NCBI GenBank assembly: GCA_046563655.1
Contig: CM102288.1
Location: 3,286,001 to 3,350,000, forward strand
Length of the DNA: 64,000 bases
Reading direction: 5' to 3'
Origin: Yuukianura sp. NJ FZ-2021
Lineage: Eukaryota
Part shown: positions 14,459 through 43,045 of the stretch, one piece after another
Layout of the letters: each line of letters opens with the position of its first letter
Position numbering within the stretch: the first letter of the stretch is position 1
Made by a program: the position numbers and the translations under genes
The notes under the pieces: model-generated
What the model was told of the DNA's origin: nothing
Seen by the model: the letters and a program-made list of their open reading frames with translations, nothing else
Databases searched by the model: none

Positions 14459-17400
14459 TTAGTCTATTGATTCCACTTCTTCCTGAATATCCTCCTTGGG
14501 TGATTTGGTTTGACGAGTCTTTTTAGCTTGACCTTTTGACCCCGCTTGACTTTTGATGTACGTAGTTAACTCAATGTAGCCATCCAGGAATTCTTCAATG
14601 TTGAACGCATCTAGGAACTCCTGTCGCTTCTCCAGTAGTGGTGTTGGATCCTCGTTGTGTTTCAGCGTCAGTTCCAGAGCTCTGTAAACATTTTGTGACA
14701 TTTGACCTTTGACCTTTGTCTGAAACCGAGAAATTTACCTGTCCCAGTTCATTGTCTCAATGTTGAGGTCAATCGCTTCAGAAATTTTGCCAGCTTTCAT
14801 CAGCACTTCCTGACCACGCTGTACTCCGTCGACGAAGATCTCTCGCTGAGCTTTCTCGACAGTGTCACCCTGAACTTCCTGGAATGTCAAAGGTCAAATT
14901 GAAAAGTATGTAGTTAGCTAATTGTAAATGATTAATTAAAATTTAATTACACTGAGATTGCTGAGGTATTCCACTTTATCGAAATGCCCGATTTCAGTGA
15001 AACAGATTTCGGCTGTGTCCAACTCTCCACGACTCGTCGCCAATCCAGCCAAAACTCCCCACAGCGTTTGAATCTGAAAAAGTTTCAAAATTTTCTTTTC
15101 AAAAAAAAGTTACTGTTTTTTCAAAATTCTTACGTTTGCGTAGCGGCACAGTCGCCGTGCTTTGCCCCAGTTTCCAGCTGCAACAAACTGATACAGTTGC
15201 GGCACAAATAAACTTCCGGTGGTGCAGATCATTGTTCCATCAGCCTTTTTTGCCTGAATGCAACTCTCGACGTAACTAACAAGTTGTGGAAACGGTCCAG
15301 GGTCACTGAAAAACCAAAGTTAAAGGAGAGGTCACGAGGTCAAAGGTCAAAGGTCAACGACCTTACCCGATTTCCTTTTCTTCTACAGTGTGTTCCAGAA
15401 GGGTTGGATTTACCATCAGAATCTGCGGATAATAGTAAATCCGAACTTTACTTTCCCGAATAGTTGCCAACATGGGTGCATCCGTGTGCCATAAAATTGT
15501 TGCCGTCGCAGATCCAAGTCGCCGCGGCGTTTCAGTCTTGCCTTGTCGCTTGACCACGGTCAAAAACAGGTCAAGACTCTTGTCAATGAAAGCAATTTGT
15601 CGTTCCGTTGGTCCTGTCATGTCATTCTGTGCTAGGGCCACTTGAATGATTTCGGCTTGTGACCGAAGTTCTGTCAACAGGCGACCGTTGTGTGTGTCGT
15701 ACACCCGAATTAGCTTTCGTTCTGATTCGTCAATCAGAGCAACCATGTCTTCTGCCATTGTCGTCGTCCGAACGTTGAGCATCTCCGATTGCATTCCTGG
15801 CCATTTGATTTGCGTCAGCTGACGACCGTCGTAGGATCGGCTGGTGATACCACTGTGTCCACAGACGATAAAATTTCTGAAATTTCGAAACAAAAACAAA
15901 GTTTAAAATTTGACACTCAGAGGTCAAAACTTGGATGTAAAGAAGAATCCAGTGTGAGGAATTCCATAATTTTTGAATTTACCGCTTCGATTGTAGCGTC
16001 AAATAAATTGAATTTGGCTCTTTTAAGTCACAGACCACGTGAATCGGAATGTTGGCAACGCTGTAGATGTACACTTGAGTTGGAAGGACAACGATTAGGT
16101 ATCCATAATTTAACGAAATCTAAAAGTAATCGATTAATTTAATCAAAAATTTTGAAAATTTTACGCTTTTTAAATTTCTAACAGAATTTTTTGTCTTACT
16201 TGAATGACTCTGTCTTGGAATTCCAGCCGATCTTTCGTGTTTGCCTTGAATTCACAAATCGTTACGACATTTTGAGCAGTGAGTGTCGCTTCAACGTTTT
16301 TCCAAACATACGTATGACAAATCACGTTGGCCACAAACACATGACCCACCGATGTCGCTCCAGCAAATTGCGTTCCATCTGAACTCCACTCCAGTGCATA
16401 AACACTTCCGAACTTCGGTGTTTCCACACAGTGTGTCCAGCCATACTGATCGCAGAGTCTGATCATGTCACTTCCTCCGACAGCAAAGAGCGAACCAGAA
16501 GGCGACCACCCCACGGAGGTCACGGGCACTTCTAAGTTACTGCTTGTGTACAAACAACGACCGTCTGGAGCCCACAGTCTATAACGAAAATCCTCCCCAC
16601 CGGACACAATTAGATTGACTGTTGGACTCCATGCTAAGCAGAGGATAAGGCCGTCGTGACCTTTCCATTCCACTGGTCGTGACCCCGCCGAAGTTTGCCG
16701 AATGATCAGAGTCTTGTCGAGACCGTACAGCACAGAACGGCCGTCAGGTCCCCAGGTACATGCGTAGATGGCCATGTGATGCTGAGCAACAACGGAACGC
16801 AACATCCCAGCGCGTGACCAAATCCGAACGAATCCGTCTTCACCCGAAGTCAAAATTTCGGAACCGTTCGGACTCCAGGCAGCACTGATTATAGCACCTA
16901 CAAATTTTTTATAGGAGACAACTTAAAAAACCTTGGCAAACTTTTTTTGAAATGTTTGTTTTTATCATTTTGATTCTTGACCTTGGTGAGCCTGGACAGT
17001 TTTTTCAAGACGGTTGCCTTTGCCATAGAGGTAGAACGATCCATGCGTAGCCGTTATGAGCAAAAGTTCATTGACCTTTCGCCCTCCGGAGGTCACTGGT
17101 CCACCAATTCCTTGCGGAGGCCATTTCATGGACACTGGATACACGTCTTGCGCAAGCTCAATGATCGAAGAAGTCTCGTTTGTCACCAAGTCCCACCGGA
17201 TTACTTGATGGTCGTCACTGAAATTTCAAAAACATAAAAATTTCAAATTTCAAACTAAATTTTGAAGGTCGTTGACCTCACCCGCAAGAAATGACCTCAT
17301 CCACGCCATTCCAAATTACGGAAGTGGCGGGAGACGAGTGATAAGCCTCTTCTTGGTCAAACGTTATCCGAATGTCCAACATTTTTACAACTTATTCAAA

Positions 17401-17792: not shown

Positions 17793-20217
17793 TTTTCAAT
17801 ATTCAAAAAATATCAGTTTTCTGAAAAGTAGTTTCGAAATTCAAAATTTTGATGACTGGTTGAAGTGAGACTGTGCCTGTCAGTTATGTCCAGGTGAAAG
17901 GTGACTGATGGACTTTGTCCGTGAGTCACGTCCACTTTCTTCAAAATTTCCACTTGCAGAAAAACCTATAAAAGACTATCGTTTCTCCATTGAAAAAGGC
18001 ACAATAGACTCAAATCCTTGGTGATTTCATTGATCCACAAAGTGTGTGGGTTTTCCATTTCATCAATACTTTTTTAGATGACAACTTCTGAAGTATGTCA
18101 TTGCATGTTCAACTCGTCCAACAAAATATGTTTCTAAAAGTTTCTGTTTCAATTGTCTCCAAAAGTACTGGAAGGGCTGTCCAGAACCTCAAGGATCCAA
18201 TTACATCCTGTCAACTTGTCATCATCATTAAACTTCTTTTGTTTACTCAAGATGCTCCAGTGTTCAATTTCGGATTAATAATGCTCCTCAAGTTTCATGT
18301 TATACTTCAGTACATTTCTTGTTAAGTAACACATAAATCTAAGATTATGGGGGATTCGGATAAATAAAACCAAAACTATTTTTTTTATAATAATTTTAAA
18401 TAAATAAAATATTTACCTTTTTAAATTATTTTAAAATTCAAAATTCTTTTAAAAAATGATTTTTTTTCAAAGTTTCTGTAAAACGCATTAAATTGTAGTA
18501 TTTTCAGCCAATCAACGTTGACTTTTGTAAATTTGTAGATAAGGGTACCAATCTCTATCTGATGGGTACACCGATACTACTTTCGGAGTACTTCAACCAA
18601 ATTAGTTTTTTTTTCGAAAAACTTTTTTTTCAAGATTTTTTTTTTCGATTTGGATTTGAATAGGCCTAGGGTCATAAACTAGGTCTGTAATCCATATGAT
18701 TTTAATCTGAAATGGATTGGGAGAAGAAAACGAGAGAAAGAGAGGTGAATGTGCTTAGAGTATGAGTGAAAGTGTTTCTCGTTTCTGAAGAAAGTGAACC
18801 TACTTGTTAGTGGAAAGAAAAGAGTGTGTAGAGAGAGGGAGAGAATAAGGTTAGGCTAACCCAAAAACCCAACGGTTAGGCTAAACCTAACCGTTAGGCT
18901 AAACCCAGAGCAGCATGAACCACATAAGGAGTGGTGGGGGTTGATGGTGGGGCTTTTGAGGAAAAAGGCGGTGGGGCGCAAGAGCCCAGAAGCCTAAGTT
19001 TCACGAAGGAATTTGAGAGCCTCCTTCCCACTTTCACCTGCAGTCCAAATCGATTCCTATAGGCACAGAGGCAGGGACGGAACTTCACTTTCACTAACCT
19101 AACCAAACAACTATAGTCTTTAAAAAAAAAGTTTTTTGAAAAAAAGAAAGTTGTAACGGAGTGAGTTGGAGGTTGTTAATTGCCCGACTAATCGAAGAGT
19201 TTGGGAAACACAGTGTGTGTAATTGGAAAACCTAAGGTAAAGTTAACCTAATCCAAGTTAGGTTCCAGTTGACACTCACGAAATTATTGGAAAGTGGAGC
19301 ACTTTGACTTTGTCTGATTTGACTTTTCTCAATATTTACTCTAGACAGACAGAACCAATTATTTCTAAAGACTAAAAAGTGAAAAGTCTATAAATTGAAT
19401 AACCTATTAATTATAGTTTTCGAAAAGTGAATCACATTATAAACTTTACGAACAAAAGGAACACACCTCTCTGTCTCCTGTATCGAATGGAACTCAATTA
19501 CTAAAGAAAGGTGAGATCAATAAGTTAAAGTAGTTGCTAAAATTTTGAAAAAAAAAGTTCAAAAAAAAAAATCTGAAAATTTTTCAAAAATCTAAAATTT
19601 TCTGTTCTGATAACGTTTACGCCACACAATGAAAATACAATGCGTTAGAACTAAAATTTTTTCAAATTTCTTTCATTTGTTTTTACAACTGGCGTAAAGT
19701 CATGCTTCAAACTTTCAAAACACTTTTTCAATTTCTTTCTGAAATTTTGAAAAAATGGCGTTACGTGACCTGATTATGGTTTGTTTTCAGTTTTAGTACT
19801 TTTTAGTCTCTAAACAAAACGTCTAACAAATCCTATAGTCCTTTGTACTAGTCTTTGCCAAAATGTCTGCTTATGTTTACCTCTCCCGCCTGTTCCTTAC
19901 CTGCCTTTGAACTTTTTTTTTCTCGAAATTTTGATGATCTGTGAATCTTTTTTGGTGGTGAGACGAAGATGAATTGGTTTTTTCAGATTTTTTAGTTTTT
20001 TTTTGTGAAGAATAAACAAACTGGTGCTATTCTTAAGGTCGTTTTCTCAATTTAGATTTTTACGAGGACTCGCGGATCTGTTGAGGTTTCCTTCCAGCCT
20101 CCTTTGGCTCCCTTCCAGCCAAACACGGTTCATATGGCGCTGTGAGCTCAAGCGACGTAGTCGTGGTCACTTTGTGTCGTTGCAGTTCCTGACTCCGCCT
20201 CCTGCGTCTGCGTCAAA

Positions 20218-23200
20218 ATGCTCAACGTCAATACGAACATGGACGCCGAGAATCGGGTCGTTCTCAACGTCGGTGGCATTCGGCATGAAACGTACAAGGC
20301 AACGCTCAAGAAAATCCCAGCGACGCGCCTCTCCCGTCTAACGGAAGCCCTCGCGAACTACGACCCCATCCTCAACGAATACTTCTTCGACAGACATCCG
20401 GGCGTTTTTGCTCAGGTTTTTCAAAATTTTGAAAAAAAAAACAAAGTTTTTCCAAAATTTTACAATTTTCGTTTTCTAGGTGCTCAATTACTACCGGACG
20501 GGCAAACTCCATTACCCAACTGACGTTTGTGGGCCACTCTTTGAAGAGGAACTGGAATTTTGGGGACTAGATTCAAATCAAGTGGAACCTTGCTGCTGGA
20601 TGACCTACACGCAGGTAAGGTCAAAGGTCAAATTTAGGGTCAAAGGTCAAATGCTAAAATGTTGACCCTGATGCTTACTTTGTTGTTGTTGTTTTTTGAA
20701 GCATCGAGAGACCCAGGAGACGTTGACCGTTCTGGATCGACTTGACCTTGACACGGAGAAGCCCACTGATGAAGAACTAGCGCGAAAGTTTGGATTTGAA
20801 GATGACTATGTTTCTGGTAACTTATCCTGGTGGCAGAAGATGAAACCCCAAATTTGGTCACTTTTTGACGAGCCTTATTCATCTTCTTCGGCCAAAGTAA
20901 GTTATCCGCCATTTTCAAAAATCATTTTCGAAAATCCTGCTTCCCGAAACCTTTGAAAGTTGCGTGGTAGTCATAGTCTCATAAGATTTTAGTAAAAGGC
21001 CTCGACTTTTTTGACGAAAAATTTTATTTAAAAAATTGATTTTTTTTCGCGAAATTATGATTACAGGTAATAGGTGTGATGAGTGTATTCTTTATTGGTA
21101 TTTCAATCCTGTCATTTTGCCTCAAAACCCATCCGGACATGAGAGTTCCTCAAATCAGGTCAGAGCAAATTTGAAGATTGCTTTTTTCATAAACTTTTTA
21201 TACTTTGTTTTTGTCTGAAATGGTGAACTTTTTTTTGAAATTTCTATTTTTTAGAAATATCACAGTGAACACTTCCCGGAACACGACGAGTTGGACACTG
21301 GACAAGTCGGGGACAAATGCCCACGAGGCCTTCTTCTACATTGAGTGCGTGTGCAATGCTTGGTTTACTTTTGAGATTCTCGTGCGCTTCATCTCTGCCC
21401 CCTCCAAGTGCGCCTTCATTCGAGCCTCCGTCAACATCATCGACTATGTCGCCACTCTCTCGTTCTACGTTGACCTCATCCTCCAGAAGTACGCAGCACA
21501 TGTAGAGAATGCTGACATACTCGAGTTCTTCTCCATCATCCGCATCATGCGGCTCTTCAAACTCACCAGGCACTCCTCGGGGCTCAAGATACTCATTCAG
21601 GTCAGCAGGTCACCCTGTCCGCTGCCTGGAGGAAGGTGTCTTAATTGTAAAATTTTGAATTTTCGCAGACTTTTAGAGCCTCCGCGAAGGAACTGACCCT
21701 GCTCGTCTTCTTCCTGGCACTCGGAATCGTCGTGTTCGCGAGTTTAGTGTACTACGCAGAGCGGATTCAAGCTAATCCGAAGAACGACTTCAACAGCATT
21801 CCTCTGGGGCTGTGGTGGGCACTGGTCACCATGACGACAGTGGGTTACGGTGATATGACACCCAAGACATACATGGGCATGTTCGTAGGGGCACTGTGTG
21901 CCCTTGGCGGTGTCCTTACCATTGCACTTCCAGTACCCGTCATCGTCTCCAACTTCACCATGTACTACTCACACACGCAGGTCAGCACGGTCGCTGGAAA
22001 TTTCAAAGTTACTTTCAAAATTTCTAAAGTTTTGATTTTGACCTTTGACCTTTGACGTTTTAGGCTCGTGCTAAACTTCCAAAGAAGCGCAGACGCGTGA
22101 TACCCGTAGAGACGCTGCGACCACCGCCGGGACCACGGTCCGGTCCAGGACAGCTCGGAGCTAACCAAGGACCGGGCGGCAGTGGCAGCACACAGCCACG
22201 ACGCATGAACGCACTCAAACAAAATAACCCTGCAAAAGACCTTCTCTCTACACCAAAAATGGGTAAGGTCAAAGGTCAAACTTTCTTTTTTTCAAAATAA
22301 AAAAAAGAAAAAAGTTTTTTTTTTCAACAATTTGTGACGCTAAATTGAATAATACTGTTGAATTTTCCAAAATTTTCCAAATTGAATCAACTATGGAACT
22401 ACTATTGCATACCAAAGAAAACTTAAGAAAACACATAAAATATGGACAGAGTTCAACTTAACATTACATTGCAAACTTTCAACAAAAACTTACGCATCTT
22501 TTACAAATGCTTTGCAAAATTTTTGGCAGAAAGATTTTGCAAATAAATAATTTTGCACGTAGAGATGCACACGGTTATGGTAGTGAAGTGAGATTTATTT
22601 AGTTGAACTGTTGCATCATTTACTAATCAAAAGCGTTTTTCAAAAAATCTAACCACAAATTTCAAAAAATTAAAAAAGAAACACCTAAAAATTGCGCTAA
22701 TGGCACTAATTTGCACTTTTAACTAACACAACTAACCTTAATTGTTAATTACTTTTGATTTGTGTCCTTTATTGCTAGCAATGAAAAAGGCTTGGAATCG
22801 TGCTCAAGATCGACAAACGGGGCAAAACAACGCCTGAGACTTATTGCAAAAAATTTCATTTGCAAAAATTCCTACTAATCAACATAACCTTACTACTCTA
22901 GTCCCTTAACTAACGTAACCTAACCTACTTTTTCACAAAAACTAACCTAATTTCAATTACAACTAAAGTCTCCAGTTTCAAATTTCAAAAAAAATGTGCA
23001 AAATTTGTTCAAAACACTTCTTCAACTAAAAAGGTGCTGGCTGCTTAAAATTCCTAAAAGCAAAATAACACTGGCAAGGTACACTTTGACCTGAAGTTGA
23101 CCTCTCAATGTTTTTAATTGTTAATTTAATTAATTAGTTTAACTTTAGTTTAATTGTATAGCCAGTGTCAATTTTGTCCCGCTTTTCTAATGTTCAGCTT

Positions 23201-23656: not shown

Positions 23657-25665
23657 TCTTTGGCCACCGCCACGACGATGACAGCCACCGCCGCGGTGCT
23701 TCGAGACCACTAAAAACTGCTACCAAGCTAAACTACGCAGAAGTCTTAATTAGTTATTCTTAATTAAGTTAATTATGATTTAACATTTAAGAAAAAAAGA
23801 TGTTTAATCTGTGATTTCAGTGATGATGAAAATGAAGACGAAGAGGAGACAACAAAAAAGTCAAATTCAAAAAAAGTTACAACTGTTTTAGAAAAAATGA
23901 ACAAAACCTTTTACTCTTCCCATTTTGCACTAAATTTAAAAAAAGTAGAAATTATTAACTACTTAATTAAAAAACTTAATTAACTAATTAACAAATTGCG
24001 TAATTTGTAAAGAGAATAATCGCTCTTCTTTTGGGCACAAAAATCTGTTTTTGCTCTTCCTCTAAACTAAAAACTTCAATTCTAAAAATTTAGTTTAAAA
24101 ATCATCTTTTTTGCATGTTAAGGGCGTAAAATTTAGAAAAACACAATTTTTTCCTATAAAAAATTATCATTAACTTTTACTCACATTTGTAATACCTTAT
24201 TATTACTAGGTTTTAATACGTTCTGGTTAAGTTTAACAAAAATTAAGACTAAAAGTTACAACAGGCAGGTTAAAATTAGGCGGGATGTTTCAATTTCAAA
24301 TCGTACTAAAAATCTGTGTTGTTCAAACACTTTTGTTTTAAAACCCGAGTTAAAACAAGGTGTTTTTAATAATTGATGTTACCACAAAGAGTTTTCTTCC
24401 GAAGTTTAATTAAGTTTTAAGACTTTTAAAGAGATAACCAACCAGAGTTAACTTTATTGTTAACAATTGCAAAGACAAAATCATACTACACCCAATCCTA
24501 ATAAGACAAAAACCAATTAACCAATTAACTAATTGATTTGTGCTTAAGAAGAAAATATAGGAAGCCAACCAGATCAAAAGGCGGTGCATTTTGAAACTAA
24601 ATTCTGTACTGTTAAGAGCTAAAAAGTTAAGCAAAACTGTCATTTATTTGCACAGTTTAAGAATTGTAACATTGAGATTGTTGTGAAAAGGTCAAAGGTC
24701 AAAGAGGGAGAGACAATGGGCAGGGTCCAATCTAAGGACAATGGGACCAAAAGGCTGGATTGTGCTCGCTCTTTTGCTTAAAAACTAAAAATAACACCGA
24801 ACAAAGACAGTAAGAAGGATTAAAACCGATTTTAAACTAAAAAAACACGACTCAATAAACACCTCAAAATATCAGCAGTATCATTTTATTTTTAAAATCA
24901 GTCAACTCTGTTTTTTAAAAACTTTTCAAAAGATAAAATTAGCGTTAGTTTACTACATAAACTGACGCTGTTCGCGCCATCTTCTGCTAAACCTTGGATG
25001 AAAGCGTTGGATACAAAAAAGGAGTCCTCGGCAAAAATTTTTTGTGGCAGCAAAGTTAGCACAGTCAACTAACACCAATATTTTTTAATTATTTTAATAA
25101 AATGTATTAATTTGACGGTTTATAGCTAGATTTAATTTTTACATATTAGAAATGCCATTTTTATTTCATTTTCGTGTTGCTTTATAATATATTAACGTAC
25201 TAAACTGCACAAAAAACGAAACAAGTTATAATAAAACAACGAAATTGGCTGAGGCTGTTTTCAGAGCAAAAAAATTCTGCCAGAGGGAAACCGGCGTGAT
25301 GCAAAACAGAAGGGGCGGGTTTCCAAATTTCGAAATTTCAAAAGTAAGTACTCAAAAAGCAGCTGACTTTTTCAAATTTTTGGGTTTTACTTCTGGTACA
25401 GCGGGTGCAAAAAGTAGCATTTTTGGTAGCCCCACCTTCCCCCGCCATTACCCGTTCTCCGCATCATCTTCCTCCTTCCATTTGAACCTCCAACAAGGAA
25501 GAAGAAGGAGCCGACATTGCTGTTTCGTCACTTTTCGTTTACATACGCAGTTGTTGAGACGATTAACTGGACAAGGAGTGGAGGAAATCAATTGTTTGGA
25601 TCAATTAATTGACATAGAAGAGGACTAATTAATCAGTGAACGTCTGAAGAGCTACTGGAGAGAGG

Positions 25666-28600
25666 ATGGGTGGAACTAGAGTCTACATCGGTGGTCTTCC
25701 GTACGGAGTACGAGAAAAAGACTTGGAACGATTCTTCAAAGGATATGGACGGATCCGGGACATATTAATCAAGAACGGATATGGATTTGTGGTAAGTACT
25801 GACTAAACACCACTTAGCTTACGTTATTTCTGCTCCTGCCTTTTCTTTGGCTCAAATTCCCTAAAGAGTAATTGAATTAGTAACGATTTACGCCTACACT
25901 ATTGACATCAATCTGCCAACATCGCCACGCCAGCATAATCATGTCTCCATCTGACCATCACCATACGGAAGACCACCGATGCCAATCCCAGTTCGCTCCG
26001 CCTCTCTACAATAGTAACGTTACACTAATTAATAGTTTCTATTTGAGATCAATTGATCAAAAACTAATGTTTTCTTCTGTCGAAAGATCAGGTTCCGTTG
26101 CCTTTGTTGTCTCGATGTAACGTGCTGGGGCCAGGTCGATCCGTTGATTCGGAGTTGGTGATGACCGGGTCCAAGAAAACCTTATCCTCCACTCCTTGTC
26201 CTGGAGATCTGGCGTGGCGAAGAATGCGACGGAAACGACCCCTTGTTCTGTCCAGGCATCTAAACTAAACTAACGTTTTTTCAAGAAAACCGAATGATTG
26301 ACTTTCATATTTGTTAACGTTGAGATTTTGTATGCGCCTGTGCTACTTTAAGCTTTGTACAGTAGTTTTCCTCAGCTTGTCCATAAATTCGTCAGTCTAA
26401 ATTAATCGATCAACTTTAGTTTACTTAAAATGTATACCACTTTTTTGTTGACAGGAATTCGATGACTACAGAGATGCGGATGATGCTGTCTATGAGCTTA
26501 ATGGCAAGGAACTACTGGGAGAACGGTAAGTTGTAATCTTTTGATTAATTTGCTTAATTTTAATTTGGTTTATATTATTTTATCATTTTGCCCTGTTCAT
26601 TTGCTCTGCACATATAAATTCATCATGCGCGATTCATACTGTGGATTCTTCTGGAAGGTCATGAGTCATGCCCGACCAATTTATCATGTAGGATTGACTG
26701 ATCTTCATGTAATTTGAGACTGCCGCGATAGTTAACGTTAAACGTTTGAAAGATAAGACTAAAAACTTGTTTCTTTTTACACTAAAACGCATATTCAGTT
26801 GAGTTTTGTGAAGTAATGGATAATTTCTTGATTTAAATCGATGTTAATCTGAGGATATTTGTTTGTGACATTGTGGGACTACTAGAGTTCGGGTGGAAAT
26901 GGCCCATGCGGCCGGGGGAGGTCGAGACCGCGGAGGGTACCGTGGGGGTGACCGCGGTGGAGGGTTTCGTGACCGCCGCGGTGGCGGGGACCGTGGGAAA
27001 CAAGACAAGGCGTGAGTCCTACGAAGGGGGTACTCATGTCGTCTGGTTATTTTTGGCTGTTTCAGAGTTCTCGTGGAGCGTGCTCGTGGAGTACCACGAG
27101 ATGGTCGTGGCGGTGGAATGGGCGGTCGTAATATGAGCCGTAATTCTAGAGGACCACCACGTGGTTCAGACAAGTAAGTTTATAACGAAATTTTAAGAAA
27201 ACATTTTCCCATGAAAATTTAAAAATTAACTTTTTCTAAGTAACTTAACGTTTTAGAAAAAACTTTTTGCTTGAAATTGGGAAAAACTTAACTTTGTTTC
27301 GTTTTTGTGATATTCGGCATCTCACCAATCGCCATTTACATAGTTACTAGTGATGATCCTCAACACTGGAACTCTGAAATGGTTCAAAAATTGCTCAAAC
27401 GTCTGGGCTCCTCTTCTTACAATTATATTTTCAATTTACACTTTTTTTACTACTTTTTCTTACTAAAAGCTACTTCTTTACCCTATCAATTTTACTGTCT
27501 CGAAAAAATTGCCTATTTAAATTTCTATTTTTGGCAAAGGTATGGACCTCCAACTCGGACCGAATATCGTCTTGTTGTAGAAAATCTGTCGAGCCGCGTC
27601 TCTTGGCAGGTAAGTCACTTCATTTCTTTGTTTTAAGTTAACCCATTTCTTAGAAAGTACTTAGGACTTCCTAAAATTGTATCCGACAATTTGTCAATCG
27701 ACGCTGAGTGCAAAGTACAATGGCTGACCGTGCGGTTATTCAACGTTTCCGATCATAGGAGCCAGTGCACAAGGAAAACGAACTGCGCAGATATAAAAAT
27801 AACGAGTATTTCGGAAATTTTTTCGGCGGGAAATTTTTCTTGGTGGGTGCAACTTTTTCGTGGTAGGAAATTTTTTTCGGCGAAAGTTTTTGCCGTCCTT
27901 TTGAGCGATTTGCGTTCATTTTCCGTGTGCACTTGTCTCGTTTTGGCTATGTATGGAAAGAGGACACTAGAAGACTTGATGCGTCTGCACAGATCTTTTT
28001 TGAAATCTTGTTTTTTTTTTCTAAAAAGCTAGAGAGTTGATTTTGGATTGAATGTTAATCGACTGTTCCATGTTTTTACTTCTAAAGCCCCTCAATTCGC
28101 TGGTGGTGAGATGAATTGATGAGGAATTTGGTGAAATAAGGCTTGGGCTCTCTCGCATCCTCCTTCCTCCTGGGTTCTCTCTAAGTGCCAAAAGATTCAA
28201 AAATTCAAATTGGGTCAATGGGCAATCGGGAATTTGGCGAAAGTGACGAAATCTAAATCTAAAGTGGCTCTCCGAAGACGAGTGACCAACCGACAGTCTC
28301 GATAGGGTCCGCTTAACGTGTCTTCTCTCTCTCAGAAGGATGATGATGATGATGAGGGTTGTCAAGGGGAGGGGGACTTGACGTTGACTGACTGGATGGA
28401 GTGACATGGTGGGTCCAGTTGAGTGGCCCACCACGTGGGGCGGGCAGTTGTGTTGTGACGAGCTGATGATTGGTGCACCAGAGAGGCGCTTACACTTTAG
28501 ACGATGGTCCACACGGTCTCGGTCGATCACCTTCCAGGATTTTATGGAGAGCCCTTGGCAGAGGGGAGCCCTTGGATGAGGGGAGCCTTGTTAAGTCCTC

Positions 28601-30501
28601 CACCGTCCCTAGCTCTGAGTCTTTTGATCTGTGTGCGAACCCAGAAAACGTTTCTTTTGTGTAACCTCTCTTTCCGAGGGAAGGTAAAGAAAGAATTAAT
28701 TAACAAATTGTCCAACTAATAACTCAAAAGACAGGCGTAATTTATCTCTTCACAGATTCACAAATGTTTCTTTTTCTTATCCCCATTTTACTTTTTCATT
28801 TAACTTTTTAAAATTAAAACAGAAAACTGGTTTAACTTTGTGTATACCGAACTTAATTTTTTTGATTTTTACTGACCAGTTTTCTGTTTTTGAAGTTGTC
28901 CAAGTCCTAATATTTTCCTGGGAAAAGTACATCCAATCGATGAGGCAGTCATGAGAGTGACGGTGAGGTGACATCAACTTCAAAAATCACAATCGCAATG
29001 GCAAGGATGAGGTCAAGCGAGGTCAAATGTTCCGAAAGTGTCCACCTTTGTGCATCCGAGGCAGCGACGTTACCTGGTTTTCCTGTTCCTGGAATCCTTC
29101 CTTTAACCTTCTGTTTTCCAGACATACTGTTTAAACTTGTCAGTAATATTTACAAAGTTATTTAAATGCTAAATTGCATGACTTTTTATGTTTATAGAAG
29201 TTTAGAATAGCAGGTTAAAGTTGACCTTGAGAAAGTCAATTACTAATTGTTTTGATTTGTTCTCATTCGTTGTTCCTCGAAGGACTTGAAGGACTATATG
29301 CGCCAGGCTGGAGAGGTAACTTACGCTGATGCCCACAAGCAACGTAGAAATGAGGGGTAAGTTGAAGTAAAAAAATTCAAACTTGGTTTTCAAAATTTTA
29401 CGATAGATTCGGGAAGTAATCGTAAGTTTTTTTTTTGTGTTTCAGTGTTGTGGAATTTGCCAGTTATTCAGACTTGAAAGCAGCCGTAGAGAAGCTGGAC
29501 GATACGGAGTTGAATGGACGTCGAATTCGATTGGTGGAGGATCGTGGAAGCCGAGGGCGCGGAGGACGACGGTCACGGTCTTCTTCAAGGTCACGATCAA
29601 AGTCTCGAAGCCGAAGCCGATCACGCGGACGTCGCGATTCACGGTGAGTTGAATGTTCTATTTCTCTTGTTTTCGGTTTTTCGTAAATGATGATTCTATC
29701 TTTCGGGTCTGAAAACTTTTGACGACTACCTTTACCCAACGTGTTCTGAAAATGTTCAAATATTTAGAAAAACCTTGGACTTACCATTTCTTCCAGTGGA
29801 AGTAATCGATTTCATTGATTTTTTGTTTAGATCGAAGAGCAAGTCGAAGTCTCCTCGAAGCAAGAGCCGATCCAAATCTCGCTCGCGTTCAAAGTAAGCA
29901 ACGGACACTTTTAACTTGAATATTGGACTGAAATGGTGGGATTCACGCTAACATTTGGTGTGGATTGTGTAGGTCACGAGACAAGTCCAAGTCACCGGAC
30001 AAGAAGAAGGACAAGGCTTCACGCTCCCGATCCAGATCACGATCAAAGTCGAGGTAAATTAATCGTCCGAAGATTTCTTCCGACAGTTTTTCAGTTCCTA
30101 CTTAATTTATTCCTAAATTATTTGGAATCCCGTTTTGTACATCTTTTTCTGTGCTTTTCGGGTAATAAAGCGCGTGTTTCTGTTTCGTGTGAGTCGAATT
30201 TTTTCAATTGATGATGATGTAATCAGTTTTTCATCTTTCGGGTCTGACACTGATGATGATAACTTTTGAACTGAATCCAAAATTCCCTTTCCTCGGAGTT
30301 CCTGTGCTGAATGGAATGTAAGTTCTTGATTACTCTGAATCTAATTGATTTTGTTGTTTTCGTGACAGGGATAAGAGCCGTTCCAGATCTAGAAGTGAGA
30401 GTAAAGGGCGTGACTCTCGAAGTCGTTCCAAATCAATGGAGAAAAATGGCGACCGGTCAGGAGATGACCGTGACATGAAGGATGACGATGGAGACGACTA
30501 G
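25666..30501 (+). CDS. B52: Serine/arginine-rich splicing factor B52/SRp55 (SRSF4/5/6 family)
   Basis: RRM1 TRVYIGGLP...[34 protein letters not shown]2 [43 protein letters not shown] domain; exons 25666-25791, 26455-26525, 26886-27011 or 27066-27173, 27540-27609, 29283-29356, 29446-29643, 29831-29893, 29973-30053, 30369-30501. Confidence 0.96.
28336..28683 (+). other. Candidate poison (PTC-containing) exon in SR gene
   Basis: Acceptor TCTTCTCTCTCTCAG at 28335, (GAT)n tract, in-frame TGA 28402-28404, donor AAG/GTAAAG at 28684; poison exons are typical of SR genes. Confidence 0.5.
29682..29752 (+). ncRNA. Intronic C/D snoRNA, SNORD2/snR39B-like (copy 1, two guides)
   Basis: C box ATGATGA 29687, guide TATCTTTCGGGT + D' CTGA 29709, C'-like TTGACGA, D CTGA 29746; guide complementary to LSU rRNA ACCCGAAAGAUG (yeast Gm805 site). 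Confidence 0.85.
30206..30279 (+). ncRNA. Intronic C/D snoRNA, SNORD2/snR39B-like (copy 2)
   Basis: C box ATGATGA 30211, guide CATCTTTCGGGT + D' CTGA 30244, C' TGATGA, D CTGA 30271; flanking GAATTTT/AAAATTC stem. Confidence 0.85.
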
Positions 30502-30940
30502 AAAGTTAATGTCACTGCTGGATTCAGAAGAACAGATAGATTTTTGTTTTGGCGTTAATTTCAATGTTACTTGAATTGAAACATGAAATGTCGCTTTACA
30601 TACTGCTAACTGCTTATGATTACTTCCTGTTTTACACAGTTTCTTTTAGATGTTCTATTTGTACCGATTTGTGTTACTGCTGATTGTATAAGAGTATCAG
30701 TGACCTATACTGTAATTCCAATGGTCTTTAAACTAAATGGAGCCTTATTCTCCTATTATATCTTATTTGTATTTAAATAACATAATTATTATTATCAAAT
30801 AAATTTTGGTTTTGAATCAAAAATTTTGATGGAAAGATAAATGTGGCAATCAGCTGTTGTCGGAATGGAATTCCAAAAACGTTCTTCGTGGATCTCGCAA
30901 TGGCATTTCACCAGTTGCTATTTGAATTACACGTGCAAGT

Positions 30941-31584
30941 GGGTCCATGCCAATACATCAAAAAAAAGACATCAACTGAAAAGACATCAACACAAAAGAC
31001 ATCAACCAGAAAGACATCAACAATGCAAACACATCAACTATAAAAACACATCAACCCAAAAGACATCAACAGAAAAGACATCAACAATGCAAACACATCA
31101 ACAATGAAAAGACATCAAAACGAAAGACATCAACAGAAAAGAAATAAGGATTTTTTTTTGAAATTTTGAAAATGTAATAAGCCAGACTTAGACAATCCAA
31201 CCTACAGACGTAATCCCTATGGTGTGCTTTACCAAACCTAACGCCGCGCCTTCGGCGCGGTACCGCAGGCTAAGCTAGCCACACGTCATCAGTATTCCCA
31301 ACTGTGATAGCATGGCCAGACTTACCTTTTTTCAAAATTTTGAAAAAAAAATTCCCAAATTTCAATTTCGGGTATAAAAATAGAATTTCTGTTGATGTCT
31401 TTTAGTTTTGATGTCTTTTCATTGTTGATGTGTTTGCATTGTTGATGTCTTTTGTGTTGATGTCTTTTGGGTTGATGTGTTTTTATAGTTGATGTGTTTG
31501 CATTGTTGATGTCTTTCTGGTTGATGTCTTTTGGTTGATGTCTTTTCAGTTGATGTCTTTTTTTTGATGTATTGGCGTGCTTCG
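30941..31584. mobile_element. Foldback/Mutator-like MITE with ~200-bp TIRs built of ~15-bp subrepeats
   Basis: AAAGACATCAAC repeats on the left mirrored by GTTGATGTCTTT on the right; flanking direct repeat GTGCAAGT (30933-30940, 31585-31592). Confidence 0.85.
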
Positions 31585-40850: not shown

Positions 40851-41098
40851 AAGCTAATCACAATGTTTGGGAATTCAATGAGGTTTTGATCTGTTTGAAC
40901 AAAATTCTGCTACTGCAGGTTCCCTGCGTGTGAACAAAGTGCGTAAAGTGTTAAGAGAGAGAGAGATGCAAACCACAGGGTTTGTGGTGGATTTGTTGTG
41001 GAGCTCTAATGATACTTTGATAAAACACTGAAACACTAATTATAAAATACATCAAAGGAGAAAATTAGTCTAAAAGTCTAACGGGAAATTATACTATA

Positions 41099-41849
41099 GT
41101 CCAAGTCAAAATTCCGTACAGATTGTTTATTCGAAAATTCGTATTTTTCCCCATGGTTGCGCTAAGGCAAAACTAACCACAATGCACCCTTCTGAATGGA
41201 AGAGTACTGAAAATTTAAAGTAAAGGTACCAAAGTGGAACTAAGATCGAAAAAAAGTATTCTTCATTCAAACTTGCCAAATTTGAACATAAGTTGGCGTT
41301 TCATAATTCGTTGTAGAGTAGTTATACTCATTTCCGGGAAATAGGGGCATCACGCAGGTTTCTGTGGACCTATTCCACCATTGGGACAACTTTGTTGGAG
41401 TAAGCAGTAAGCAGTGAGAATTATTTTTCGGATTACACCTTATGTATTACGAAATTACGATAATGAAAAATACGAAAAATACATTCGTATTTTTCGGCTC
41501 TGTATAATACGTCGTATTATACGTATGTCATTGTATTGTATGTATGAATCAGCGAACCCTGATCAAAATATAAAACAAAGAACAAACCATTGCAACGGGT
41601 TGTTGTAAAAGATACTCGATGCTTTCCCATTCAAAGATTAACCATGCGGAGCTCGGCATGACTCTTAATTTAATTATGCTACCGTTGCTCCTTTAATAAA
41701 ATGATTATAATTTAGTTAAAATTCAAACTAAAACTTTGTGCATACTTGGGTACAATGCTGCTCGGTATATTTTTCGTCAATTTGTGTGTTTGTCGGGGCA
41801 ACGGAGGAATTTGACGAATCAACAATCTGTACGGAATTTTGACTTGGAC
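41099..41849. mobile_element. Non-autonomous TIR element with TA flanks (Tc1/mariner-like MITE)
   Basis: TA-GTCCAAGTCAAAATTCCGTACAGATTGTT ... AACAATCTGTACGGAATTTTGACTTGGAC-TA, ~29-bp perfect TIR. Confidence 0.85.
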
Positions 41850-43045
41850 TAGTTCGAAATGCGTTGATTTGAGGATAGAAAGTGTCAAGGTTATGTAAGT
41901 TTTGTTTGTAAGAATTTTAAAAATTTGAGAATATGAAAAATTTTTGGCAGGAGATGTTTGAGAAGTTTTAGGATTTCGGAGTTCAAGTTTGTAGAATTTT
42001 GTTTTGCTTTCTTTTTTCTTTTGCAGAATGTTTTAAAAGTGCTTGATTCGACAGAGGAAGAAGTTGAAATTTTTGTTCCGAGATACGAATTTTTGCAGCT
42101 CAGAATTGAATTTTTTCTGCTCTTTTGCAGTTCCGGGTTTTTGAAAAATGTAGGAAGCTATTTTTGGATGGGGAAAGCGTGAAGAGCGATTCAAATGCGT
42201 TTTTGATAAAGTGTTTTTGAATGAGAATTTATTTTTTCGGTAATGTATGAAAGTTGCAAAAAATGAGTTCTTGGAAGTATAAAAATATTTGCGAGTTGGT
42301 TGATGAAGGAAGAGGATGAGGAAGTTTTTGGCAAAGCGTCAAGTGGAAAATAACTTGAGGCAGTCAGTCTCACTCTGGAATCTGGAACAGGATTTTTTCC
42401 ATTTAGTGCAATTTATTTAGCAAAAGAGGAAAGAGTTGACGACTAAAGGCACAAAAGGATGTGACGATGGACAGAGTTATGGCCAATTGTGACTTCCATT
42501 CTTCGTCACAATGATAAAAGTAATCGAAGGCTTGACAATTTCCTTGATTAAACTTTTGACACTTACTTGCCACTGTATTAATTATTAGAAGCTTCTTTTG
42601 TTAGTGGTAGGGAGGGTGTTAGTATGTGCGTAAGCAAAGTTAAAGTTGATGCAAACTTAACCATTTTGTGGTTAGGAATTGACTGGTGAGGGACCTATTT
42701 TTATCAGCAGTGCTGTGCGAAACGCTGCTTTTTGGTTTCTTGCTGACATTGGTTTGTTGAGGTTTTAAAAAAATTGAGACCTTCTGCAACCGTTGGCAAT
42801 TTGATTTTGTACTTGGAAGTTTCAAGGTTTCGTTTTTGCAACTTAGGTTTTTACAGTTTTTGCAATTTTAGTGTTAAAGGGAATGCGAATGTGCAATTTT
42901 AGTTAGTTGAGGGAGAGTTGTGTCAGGCGAAACAGAAGAATTTGTAAGGTAGTTTCGAACGTGAATTTGTGATTTTGTTGATTAATTGTGATTTTTGTTA
43001 ATTGCAGGCGTGAAAACGTAGGTGTGAAGAAAGTAATCATCAGCA

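What the first reader, a model, noticed from the sequence alone, without database searches (positions are those of the whole stretch)
25547..26220. ATG exon of the B52/SR gene is wrapped by a long complementary intronic duplex
Seen: the intron after the ATG-containing exon carries a colinear series of segments antisense to that exon, all nested. 25569-25585 GGACAAGGAGTGGAGGA pairs with 26185-26201 (17/17). 25593-25642 pairs imperfectly with 26018-26063. 25652-25677, spanning the AUG, pairs with about 25990-26014. 25686-25703 CATCGGTGGTCTTCCGTA pairs with 25964-25981 (18/18). 25745-25767 pairs imperfectly with 25936-25958. The 5' splice site (25792) lies in the loop. Inference: the pre-mRNA folds into a >100-bp imperfect exon-intron hairpin covering 5' UTR, start codon and RRM1 codons. 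G-U pairs, A-C mismatches and looped-out segments fit a selected RNA structure better than a raw inverted duplication. It could be an ADAR editing-complementary sequence or a structural switch for autoregulated splicing or translation. I know of no description of this element.
Basis: partly seen in the sequence, partly recalled or inferred. Interest (0 to 1): 0.85.

Follow-up and report, generated by a model that had tools for sequence, protein, structure and literature searches.

The report
Conserved exon-intron RNA duplex in B52
The first intron of this insect-type B52/SR splicing-factor gene carries a conserved antisense copy of the gene's own leader, start codon and first codons, so the unspliced RNA can fold into a long hairpin that evolution has kept, although what it does is still untested.

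Summary
Exon 1 of a B52/SRSF6-type gene (ATG 25666, 5' splice site 25792) is colinearly complementary to 25961-26201 inside intron 1 (25792-26455).

It is not a decaying duplication. One metagenome contig, L005, is a diverged relative: exon 1 is 112/126 nt identical and all changes are synonymous. It has the same architecture.
- The core stem (exon 25653-25706 with intron 25961-26016, 42 bp) keeps every pair, with 3 compensatory and 3 wobble-compatible changes.
- The intron arm (83% identical) and two pyrimidine-rich islands (87% and 89%) are as conserved as coding sequence. The rest of the intron is 36-53% identical.
- Each species' leader pairs with its own intron far better than with the other's.
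- Polymorphism is about 35-fold lower in the structured part of the intron than downstream of it.

Seven other lineages lack the structure. The two closest have an intron 1 of only 86-115 nt.

Function is untested, because no RNA run was available. My best guess (0.4) is a pre-mRNA switch that controls intron 1 removal and masks the AUG on unspliced RNA. An ADAR editing duplex is the main rival (0.25). I found no published description.

The parts
25569..25652 (+). 5' leader arm of the hairpin. It pairs with 26017-26201 and includes the 17/17 outer stem 25569-25585.
   Evidence: The two-strand fold with 26017-26210 gains -43.8 kcal/mol and forms 64 pairs, against -11.2 +/- 3.5 for shuffles. The sequence is only 51% identical to L005, yet L005's own leader pairs with its own intron.
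25653..25706 (+). Core exon arm: positions -13 to -1, AUG (25666-25668) and codons 2-14 (RNP-2 part of RRM1).
   Evidence: RNAalifold gives 42 pairs with 25961-26016. There are 3 compensatory changes, 3 one-sided changes and 0 broken pairs. Pair probabilities are about 1.0 in the window and in L005.
25792..25797 (+). 5' splice site of intron 1 (GTAAGT). It lies in the loop of the hairpin.
   Evidence: The cDNA-like contigs L001-L003 join the exon 1 end directly to the exon 2 sequence.
25833..25855 (+). Conserved pyrimidine-rich intron island a. It may pair with exon 25712-25727.
   Evidence: 20/23 identical to L005. The pairing is predicted by RNAalifold. Its probability is 0.94 in L005 but about 0 in the window, so it is inconclusive.
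25961..26016 (+). Core intron arm, antisense to the AUG region and codons 1-14. It is non-coding: there is no ATG, and the indels differ between the two species.
   Evidence: 53/64 identical to L005 over 25953-26016, against 36-53% for the other intron segments. Pairing is shown.
26017..26061 (+). Intron arm opposite leader 25595-25643. It evolves fast.
   Evidence: blocks. It is 36% identical to L005.
26062..26098 (+). Conserved intron island c. It has a branch-point-like CTAAT, a pyrimidine tract and AG dinucleotides. It pairs with the leader, or alternatively with the purine run just upstream of the AUG.
   Evidence: 33/37 identical to L005, which is more conserved than its leader partner.
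26185..26201 (+). Intron side of the 17/17 outer stem.
   Evidence: I2. Pair probability is 1.0. The sequence is not conserved in L005 (5/17).
26209..26220 (+). 12/12 complement of 25922-25933, which lies in the loop. This is a possible pseudoknot and is unverified.
   Evidence: I9. No equivalent was seen in L005.
25792..26455 (+). Intron 1 (664 nt).
   Evidence: The intron is 866 nt in L005 and 115, 86, 272 and 1102 nt in L004, L006, L012 and L026.

Best explanation
This is a selectively maintained, imperfect RNA duplex of about 110 bp or more in the B52 pre-mRNA. It joins the 5' part of exon 1 (leader, AUG, codons 1-14) to the middle of intron 1.

Origin (inferred): an inverted duplication of the exon's 5' part into an intron that is short (86-115 nt) in the closest relatives lacking the structure.

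Because one arm is intronic, the duplex can exist only on unspliced RNA.

Proposed mechanism (inferred, not shown): it is a cis-acting switch on the fate of unspliced B52 RNA.
- Once the intron arm is transcribed, the hairpin locks up the cap-proximal leader, the purine-rich exonic sequences and the AUG.
- It places the 5' splice site at the tip of a long rod, and it pairs with a conserved 3'-splice-site-like island (26062-26098).
- This would slow or gate removal of intron 1. It would also keep intron-retaining RNA untranslated, and so spared from translation-dependent decay.
- The result would be dosage control of an SR protein, read out by SR proteins or by dsRNA-binding proteins.

Shown: the structure is present, is conserved in a second species with compensatory changes, and carries reduced polymorphism.

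Inferred: every functional step.
For: Structure and selection:
- 142 of 142 cells are paired over 71 pairs in two species, with 5 compensatory and 4 one-sided changes and none broken. Slid controls give 40-52% paired and 0-1 compensatory changes.
- The compensatory pair 25680/25986 sits between mismatches that are conserved in both species (A25678 opposite C, and the 5x4 loop at 25681-25685). A gene-conversion tract cannot explain this.
- The intron arm is 83% identical, island a 87% and island c 89%. Other intron segments are 36-53% identical.
- Own leader with own intron gains -43.8 and -28.9 kcal/mol. Cross-species pairs gain -18.6 and -9.7. Shuffles give -11.2 +/- 3.5 and -7.6 +/- 3.0.
- Polymorphism is 1 SNP in 433 intron nt inside the structure against 19 SNP positions in the next 231 nt (Fisher p = 1.6e-8).

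Towards a splicing or dosage role:
- Island c is more conserved than its pairing partner and looks like branch point + pyrimidine tract + AG.
- The duplex covers the leader and AUG, which matters only for unspliced RNA.
- The two closest relatives without the structure have a tiny intron 1.
- From established knowledge (recalled): SR-protein genes are commonly autoregulated by unproductive splicing.
- A splicing-factor gene, rnp-4f, uses a conserved 5' intron-exon stem-loop to regulate intron retention (PMC4235677, passages read).
Against: - There are no RNA data, so intron retention, alternative 3' site use and protein binding are all untested.
- The 5' splice site is not robustly sequestered. 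The local helix over it has probability 0.94 in L005 but about 0 in the window.
- No internal 5' splice site scores above 2.2 bits, against 6.2 for the real sites, so no cassette poison exon is evident.
- Only two species carry the structure. The shuffle control with two sequences cannot go below about 15/500.
- RNAalifold favours covarying pairs by construction.
- Thermodynamic z-scores of the core are modest: -2.2 (3/200 shuffles) and -3.4 (0/200).
Confidence: 0.4

Rival explanations
1. Classical ADAR editing-site complementary sequence. The intron arm presents exon 1 adenosines to ADAR before splicing, so that specific codons are recoded. The long leader duplex would act as a recruiting element. 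Candidate sites are the Arg5 AGA first position at 25678, Ile8 at 25687, Tyr7 at 25685, Tyr13 at 25703, or the AUG itself.
For: - The architecture is that of known insect and mammalian ECS duplexes (exon arm plus conserved intronic arm), from established knowledge.
- The core is 44-48 pairs at -65 to -72 kcal/mol in both species.
- Conserved unpaired adenosines include A25678 in a U-A-G context opposite C in both species. Internal loops are conserved.
- Ile8 to Val would match the Val seen at this position in other lineages.
- Duan et al. 2017 (PMC5365144, passages read) list D. melanogaster B52 among genes with editing sites in stems of long-range pre-mRNA structures.
Against: - No RNA run is available, so no A-to-G signal could be sought.
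- In the Sapiro et al. 2019 supplement (PMC6369821), 2 of the 3 B52 occurrences were shown. Both (chr3R 13665301 and 13665303) are annotated 3'UTR, not exon 1.
- The duplex covers about 100 nt of non-coding leader, where recoding is irrelevant.
- B52 is a housekeeping gene, not the usual neuronal target.
- Arg5 is invariant in the 45 homologues translated.
Confidence: 0.25
2. Source of small RNAs or of a trans-acting antisense RNA. Either the hairpin is diced into endo-siRNAs, or the excised intron, which carries about 240 nt antisense to the mRNA's leader and start region, pairs in trans with mature B52 mRNA and gives negative feedback.
For: - The intron arm is antisense to the mRNA 5' end over 25569-25706.
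- A nearly perfect 21-22 nt block (25686-25706 with 25961-25981) is kept in both species (I1; I2, 22 nt at 91%).
- hpRNA loci are known to arise by inverted duplication of their targets (recalled).
Against: - The arms are only 79% identical. The longest perfect run in the window is 18 bp. This is far from the near-perfect duplexes of known hpRNAs.
- No small-RNA data are available.
- Self-targeting of an essential gene is unusual.
Confidence: 0.07
3. A functionless inverted duplication. Its arms would be kept alike by DNA-level gene conversion, or the conservation would reflect a DNA element such as an intronic enhancer rather than RNA pairing.
For: - The arms are colinear copies.
- Wobble counts show no + strand bias (3 against 11 in the window; 7 against 7 in L005).
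- The minus strand folds as well as the plus strand.
- The 17/17 outer stem is young: it is not conserved in L005, and one variant allele at 25586 matches the intron copy.
Against: - Mismatches, wobble pairs (25669-25997 and 25671-25995) and internal loops are conserved in both species. Conversion would erase them.
- The compensatory pair 25680/25986 is flanked within 2-5 nt by retained mismatches.
- Perfect runs of 18-22 nt are poor conversion substrates (general knowledge).
- The neutral intron around the arms is saturated (36-53% identical) while the arms stay complementary.
- Polymorphism is low over the whole structured block.
Confidence: 0.1

Closest known systems
Drosophila rnp-4f 5'-UTR stem-loop (intron 0 paired with exon 2), which regulates intron retention and is bound by a dADAR isoform (PMC4235677, passages read)
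   Same: Both are in a splicing-factor gene. Both are evolutionarily conserved duplexes between an intron and the adjacent exon in the 5' part of the transcript, and both exist only in the unspliced form. A dsRNA-binding protein is the proposed reader.
   Different: In rnp-4f the intron lies inside the 5'UTR and retention leaves the coding potential unchanged. Here the intron interrupts RRM1, the duplex covers the AUG and 14 codons, and retention would truncate the protein. No isoform or binding data exist here.
ADAR editing-site complementary sequences (exon-intron duplexes, for example GluA2 Q/R and R/G, and insect ion-channel genes; recalled)
   Same: An exon arm is paired to a conserved intronic arm a few hundred nucleotides downstream. 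Internal loops are conserved, and an A opposite C sits in a favourable triplet.
   Different: Editing is not shown. The target gene is a housekeeping SR protein. The duplex extends through the whole leader. The D. melanogaster B52 sites shown are annotated 3'UTR.
Yeast ribosomal-protein autoregulatory pre-mRNA structures (RPL30, RPS14B; recalled)
   Same: A structure formed by the 5' exon (including the start region) and the intron controls splicing. It can also block translation of the unspliced RNA.
   Different: Those structures are short and are bound by the gene's own product at or next to the 5' splice site. Here the duplex is more than 100 bp and the splice site is in the loop.
Conserved intronic structures that conceal branch sites and control poison exons (SF3B3; PMC11162794, abstract and outline read)
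   Same: A conserved structure in a splicing-factor gene pairs with a branch-point-like, pyrimidine-rich element (island c).
   Different: No poison exon or usable downstream 5' splice site was found. Here the partner of the concealed element is the exon's leader, not a neighbouring intron segment.

Membership tests
ADAR editing-site complementary sequence (ECS) duplex | Double-stranded RNA of about 20 bp or more formed by the edited exon and an intronic complement | tested here: met
   The core stem has 42-48 pairs in both species. Pair probability is about 1.0.
ADAR editing-site complementary sequence (ECS) duplex | A-to-G differences between RNA and DNA at defined adenosines, dependent on ADAR | not testable with these tools
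   No run on record as RNA holds the locus. Only DNA contigs could be laid.
ADAR editing-site complementary sequence (ECS) duplex | Intronic arm conserved between species well above the surrounding intron | tested here: met
   83% against 36-53% in window versus L005. This rests on one relative only. The other 12 of the 13 genomic loci tested lack the arm.
Autoregulatory exon-intron splicing switch (rnp-4f or RPL30 type) | Conserved duplex between the 5' exon and the adjacent intron | tested here: met
Autoregulatory exon-intron splicing switch (rnp-4f or RPL30 type) | Occlusion of a splice site or branch point by the structure | tested here: inconclusive
   The 5' splice site is in the loop. 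The local helix over it has probability 0.94 in L005 and about 0 in the window. The branch-point-like island c is paired with the leader, but its use as a splice signal is unknown.
Autoregulatory exon-intron splicing switch (rnp-4f or RPL30 type) | An intron-retaining or alternatively spliced isoform, and binding by the regulator | not testable with these tools
   No RNA data.
Poison-exon cassette of SR-protein genes | A conserved alternative exon flanked by usable 3' and 5' splice sites | tested here: not met
   A 3'-site-like island c is present. The best internal 5' site scores 0.2 bits (window) and 2.2 bits (L005), against 6.2 for the real sites (the weight matrix was set from memory).
hpRNA / endo-siRNA hairpin locus | A long, near-perfect inverted repeat | tested here: not met
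   The arms are 79% identical in both species. The longest perfect run in the window is 18 bp.
Neutral inverted duplication | Arms diverge from each other at the neutral rate, with no cross-species conservation of the non-coding arm | tested here: not met
B52/SRSF6-type SR protein gene (host gene) | N-terminal RRM, second RRM-like domain and RS tail | tested here: met
   Exon 1 matches RRM_1 at 1.3e-9. The cDNA-like relative L003 matches RRM_1 at 2e-34 and has an RS tail. tblastn places the window exons from 25666 to 30495.

The most novel reading that the evidence does not exclude
The intron holds a conserved antisense copy of its own mRNA's leader and start codon, and this acts as a self-addressed silencer. 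In cis, it would make unspliced B52 RNA untranslatable and therefore invisible to nonsense-mediated decay. That would create a stored, splice-on-demand pool, like a detained intron. After splicing, the released intron could pair in trans with the start region of mature B52 mRNA. Each splicing event would then produce one mRNA and one matching inhibitor, which would be a stoichiometric feedback on SR-protein dosage that has not been described.
Probability: 0.12. Interest if true: 0.85.

Novelty: new variant of a known kind. Interest (0 to 1): 0.6.

Why it matters
SR proteins must be held at tight dosage. Their known autoregulation runs through poison exons and retained introns.

This element would be a different solution. 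It is a lineage-specific RNA duplex born from an inverted duplication, and it covers the leader, the start codon and the first RRM codons only while the first intron is still present.

It also shows how a fresh inverted duplication inside a gene can be domesticated into a conserved RNA structure. The short-intron relatives serve as natural "before" states.

It offers a directly testable system, with arms 170-600 nt apart and clear compensatory sites, for asking three things: how exon-intron dsRNA affects splicing kinetics, how it affects ADAR access, and how it affects the fate of unspliced RNA.

Tried and rejected
- **Whole genome:** none is held for this window.
- **RNA evidence:** no RNA holder was listed in the look-up of sequencing runs. 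Only DNA contigs (X1, X2, X4, X5) could be laid.
- **More orthologues:**
  - The metagenome scan returned 76 loci. Of the 45 I translated, 21 have an intron directly after exon 1.
  - I tested 13 of these 21 for own-exon complementarity, and 9 of them again over +/-2.5 kb. Only L005 is positive.
  - The 8 untested loci have the same exon 1 protein as tested ones (L012 type and L026 type).
  - The genome contigs pattern scan gave 2 bacterial chance hits at 66-68% GC. The viral-contig scan gave one unrelated locus.
- **Rfam:** nothing relevant in 25300-26600. The one match is mir-202-like, E = 0.88, upstream on the minus strand.
- **Poison cassette exon in intron 1:** no usable internal 5' splice site.
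- **Coding constraint on the intron arm:** rejected. The copy has no ATG, and the indels relative to the exon differ between the species.
- **B52 binding hairpin from SELEX (Shi et al. 1997):** the paper and its 1999 follow-up are not held. Other papers gave only a 5-nt cross-link site. The idea that the islands are B52 sites therefore stays untested.
- **Position of the D. melanogaster B52 editing sites of Duan et al. 2017:** S6 Fig is a PDF I could not read. The spreadsheets carry no gene names.
- **Helices 3-7 of the RNAalifold model** (exon 25712-25757 with island a and the 5' splice site): kept only as a possibility, because the window's own ensemble does not form them.
Full report
**What is there.**
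The window encodes a B52/SRSF6-type SR protein on the + strand.
- Exon 1 ends at 25791, with its ATG at 25666-25668 and 42 codons. These match Pfam RRM_1 at 1.3e-9.
- Intron 1 runs from 25792 (GTAAGT) to 26455, and exon 2 starts at 26456.
- Further exons reach about 30495.
Composition is 39% G+C, and neighbouring reading frames look like animal genes.

**The observation.**
- The repeat finder reports arms 25673-25706 with 25961-25994 (34 nt, 79%), 25569-25600 with 26170-26201 (32 nt, 78%, the first 17 perfect), 25595-25609 with 26048-26062, and 25652-25665 with 26001-26014.
- A gapped local alignment of the exon arm to the reverse complement of the intron gives 103/131 identities in colinear blocks.
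- Own exon against the downstream reverse complement scores 59, against 19.7 +/- 2.0 for 30 shuffles.
- Independent Logan contigs span both arms, so it is not an assembly artefact.
- The 691-nt region folds to -209.7 kcal/mol (z -3.1). The opposite strand folds to -220.1 (z -6.1), 20 shuffles each.
- In the window alone, transitions between the arms would give G-U on the + strand 3 times and on the - strand 11 times.

**Relatives.**
A scan of metagenome contigs with the exon 1 peptide returned 76 loci. Some are spliced, cDNA-like contigs. Of the 45 loci I translated, 21 have an intron directly after exon 1.
- I tested 13 of these 21 for complementarity between their own exon 1 region and the next 1500 nt.
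- I tested 9 of them again over all flanks held, +/-2.5 kb.
- Only L005 is positive. It scores 47 against 19.8 +/- 1.6, with exon arm 161-287 and intron arm 555-699.
- The negatives form seven lineages: L004, L006, the L012 type, the L026 type, L042, L044 and L046.
- L005 is the nearest relative. Exon 1 is 112/126 nt identical, all 14 differences are synonymous, and intron 1 is 866 nt.
- L004 and L006 have the same or nearly the same peptide (102/126 nt) but an intron 1 of only 115 and 86 nt.
- The structure is therefore lineage-restricted. It sits in an intron that is several-fold longer than in the two closest relatives lacking it.

**Evidence for selection.**
- *Pairing across species.* In the window-L005 alignment most of the intron is unalignable, but the pairing is kept. 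RNAalifold on window 25630-26030 and L005 205-650 predicts a 42-bp stem, exon 25653-25706 with intron 25961-26016.
  - It has 3 compensatory double changes (25658/26009, 25680/25986, 25698/25969).
  - It has 3 one-sided changes that keep pairing through G-U, and no broken pair.
- *Counted on the named structure.* Over 71 pairs, 142 of 142 cells pair, with 5 compensatory pairs.
  - With the 3' partners slid by 1-3 columns, 40-52% of cells pair and there are 0-1 compensatory pairs.
  - 15 of 500 shuffles reach the observed value. This is the floor for five pairs in two sequences.
- *Sequence conservation.*
  - The intron arm 25953-26016 is 53/64 identical.
  - Island a (25833-25855) is 20/23 identical, and island c (26062-26098) is 33/37.
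  - The exon is 87-89% identical. The other intron segments are 36-53% identical.
- *Co-evolved leader.* The leader arm is only 51% identical between species, yet each leader pairs with its own intron.
  - Own pairs gain -43.8 and -28.9 kcal/mol. Cross-species pairs gain -18.6 and -9.7. Shuffled pairs gain -11.2 +/- 3.5 and -7.6 +/- 3.0.
  - L005's own arms are 142/180 identical, the same 79% as in the window.
- *Ensemble folds.* Core pair probabilities are about 1.0 in both species when about 1 kb of context is folded.
- *Polymorphism.* In contigs of four DNA runs from two samples there is 1 SNP and no indel in the 433 intron bases inside the structure (25792-26224).
  - The next 231 bases hold 19 SNP positions and 9 listed indels (Fisher p = 1.6e-8).
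  - Run X5 does not cover 25972-26153, and contigs drop rare variants.
  - One leader variant (25573 A>G in X5) turns an A-U pair of the outer stem into G-U.

**Against a neutral or DNA-level explanation.**
- The intron arm is not coding. The copy lacks the ATG, and its indels differ between the species.
- Gene conversion could keep the arms alike, but both species retain the same imperfections:
  - the G-U pairs 25669-25997 and 25671-25995;
  - the 2x2 loop at the A and U of the AUG;
  - A25678 opposite C;
  - the 5x4 loop at 25681-25685;
  - the C-A mismatch at 25704-25963.
- The compensatory pair 25680/25986 lies between two of these retained mismatches.
- I put a functionless duplication at about 0.1.

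**What is weak.**
- Only two species carry the structure.
- Core z-scores are modest: -2.2 (3/200 shuffles) and -3.4 (0/200).
- The inner helices proposed by RNAalifold (exon 25712-25741 with island a, and 25744-25757 with 25782-25794 across the 5' splice site) are probable in L005 (0.94, 0.68, 0.94). They are about 0 in the window, which prefers its own continuation of the repeat.
- The 17/17 outer stem is not conserved in sequence (5/17).
- A wider alignment suggests a competing partner for the purine run just 5' of the AUG, namely island c instead of 26001-26014.

**Function.**
Nothing functional could be tested, because no RNA holder was listed. Since one arm is intronic, the duplex acts on unspliced RNA.
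- *Splicing and dosage switch (0.4).* This is my best reading, for four reasons.
  - Island c is more conserved than pairing alone requires. It looks like a branch point, pyrimidine tract and AG.
  - The duplex covers the cap-proximal leader and the AUG, which matters only for unspliced RNA.
  - SR genes are typically autoregulated through unproductive splicing (recalled).
  - The closest documented analogue is the rnp-4f intron-exon stem-loop, which controls intron retention (PMC4235677, passages read).
  - Against it, no internal 5' splice site suggests a cassette poison exon.
- *ADAR editing duplex (0.25).*
  - For: the architecture fits, and a conserved U-A-G adenosine sits opposite C at 25678.
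  - Against: the D. melanogaster B52 sites I could see in a spreadsheet (PMC6369821 supplement, 2 of 3 occurrences shown) are annotated 3'UTR.
  - The B52 figure of Duan et al. 2017 (PMC5365144) is a PDF I could not read.
- *Small-RNA or trans-antisense roles (0.07).* The arms are too imperfect for a typical hpRNA.

**Novelty.**
Seven full-text searches found no description of an exon 1-intron 1 duplex in B52 or its orthologues. It is a new variant of a known kind, the conserved exon-intron pre-mRNA duplex. It is unusual in three ways: it covers the leader, start codon and RRM codons of an SR-protein gene; it is lineage-specific; and it has a visible origin as an inverted duplication.

Noticed in passing
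window 30946-31145 and 31401-31579: Two inverted arrays of a 15-nt tandem unit, about 11 copies each. They form an inverted repeat with arms up to 133 nt at 98% complementarity. It lies 450-1080 nt downstream of the B52 stop codon (about 30499). It falls between poly(A)-signal hexamers at 30798 and 31709, so it would be in a long 3'UTR isoform if one exists. The D. melanogaster B52 editing sites shown in PMC6369821's supplement are annotated 3'UTR. This may therefore be the better ADAR substrate of the gene.
   Followed up: partly
window 25922-25933 and 26209-26220: A perfect 12/12 complement between the hairpin loop and the sequence just 3' of the outer stem (I9). It would form a pseudoknot. 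No counterpart was seen in L005.
   Followed up: partly
L004 2627-2741; L006 2627-2712: The closest relatives without the hairpin, which have the same exon 1 peptide, have an intron 1 of only 115 and 86 nt. The window has 664 nt and L005 has 866 nt. This is consistent with the intron having grown when the inverted copy arose; the direction of change is inferred.
   Followed up: partly
window 41097-41133 and 41815-41851: A 37-nt inverted repeat, 97% complementary, with arms 681 nt apart. It looks like the terminal repeats of a small transposon.
   Followed up: no
window 20161-22052 (+): Open frames with a potassium-channel pore signature and a tetramerisation-domain-like N-terminus. This is a voltage-gated K+ channel gene upstream of B52 (read by eye, not searched).
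   Followed up: no
window 14696-14715 with 15337-15356, and 22037-22064 with 22253-22280: Inverted pairs of short tandem TGACCT/AGGTCA-type repeats (I23 and I17). They resemble nuclear-receptor half-site arrays. They were not examined.
   Followed up: no
window 26225, 26257, 26261: All four laid DNA runs differ from the window at these three intron positions. Either the window's individual carries a distinct haplotype, or these are errors in the window sequence.
   Followed up: no
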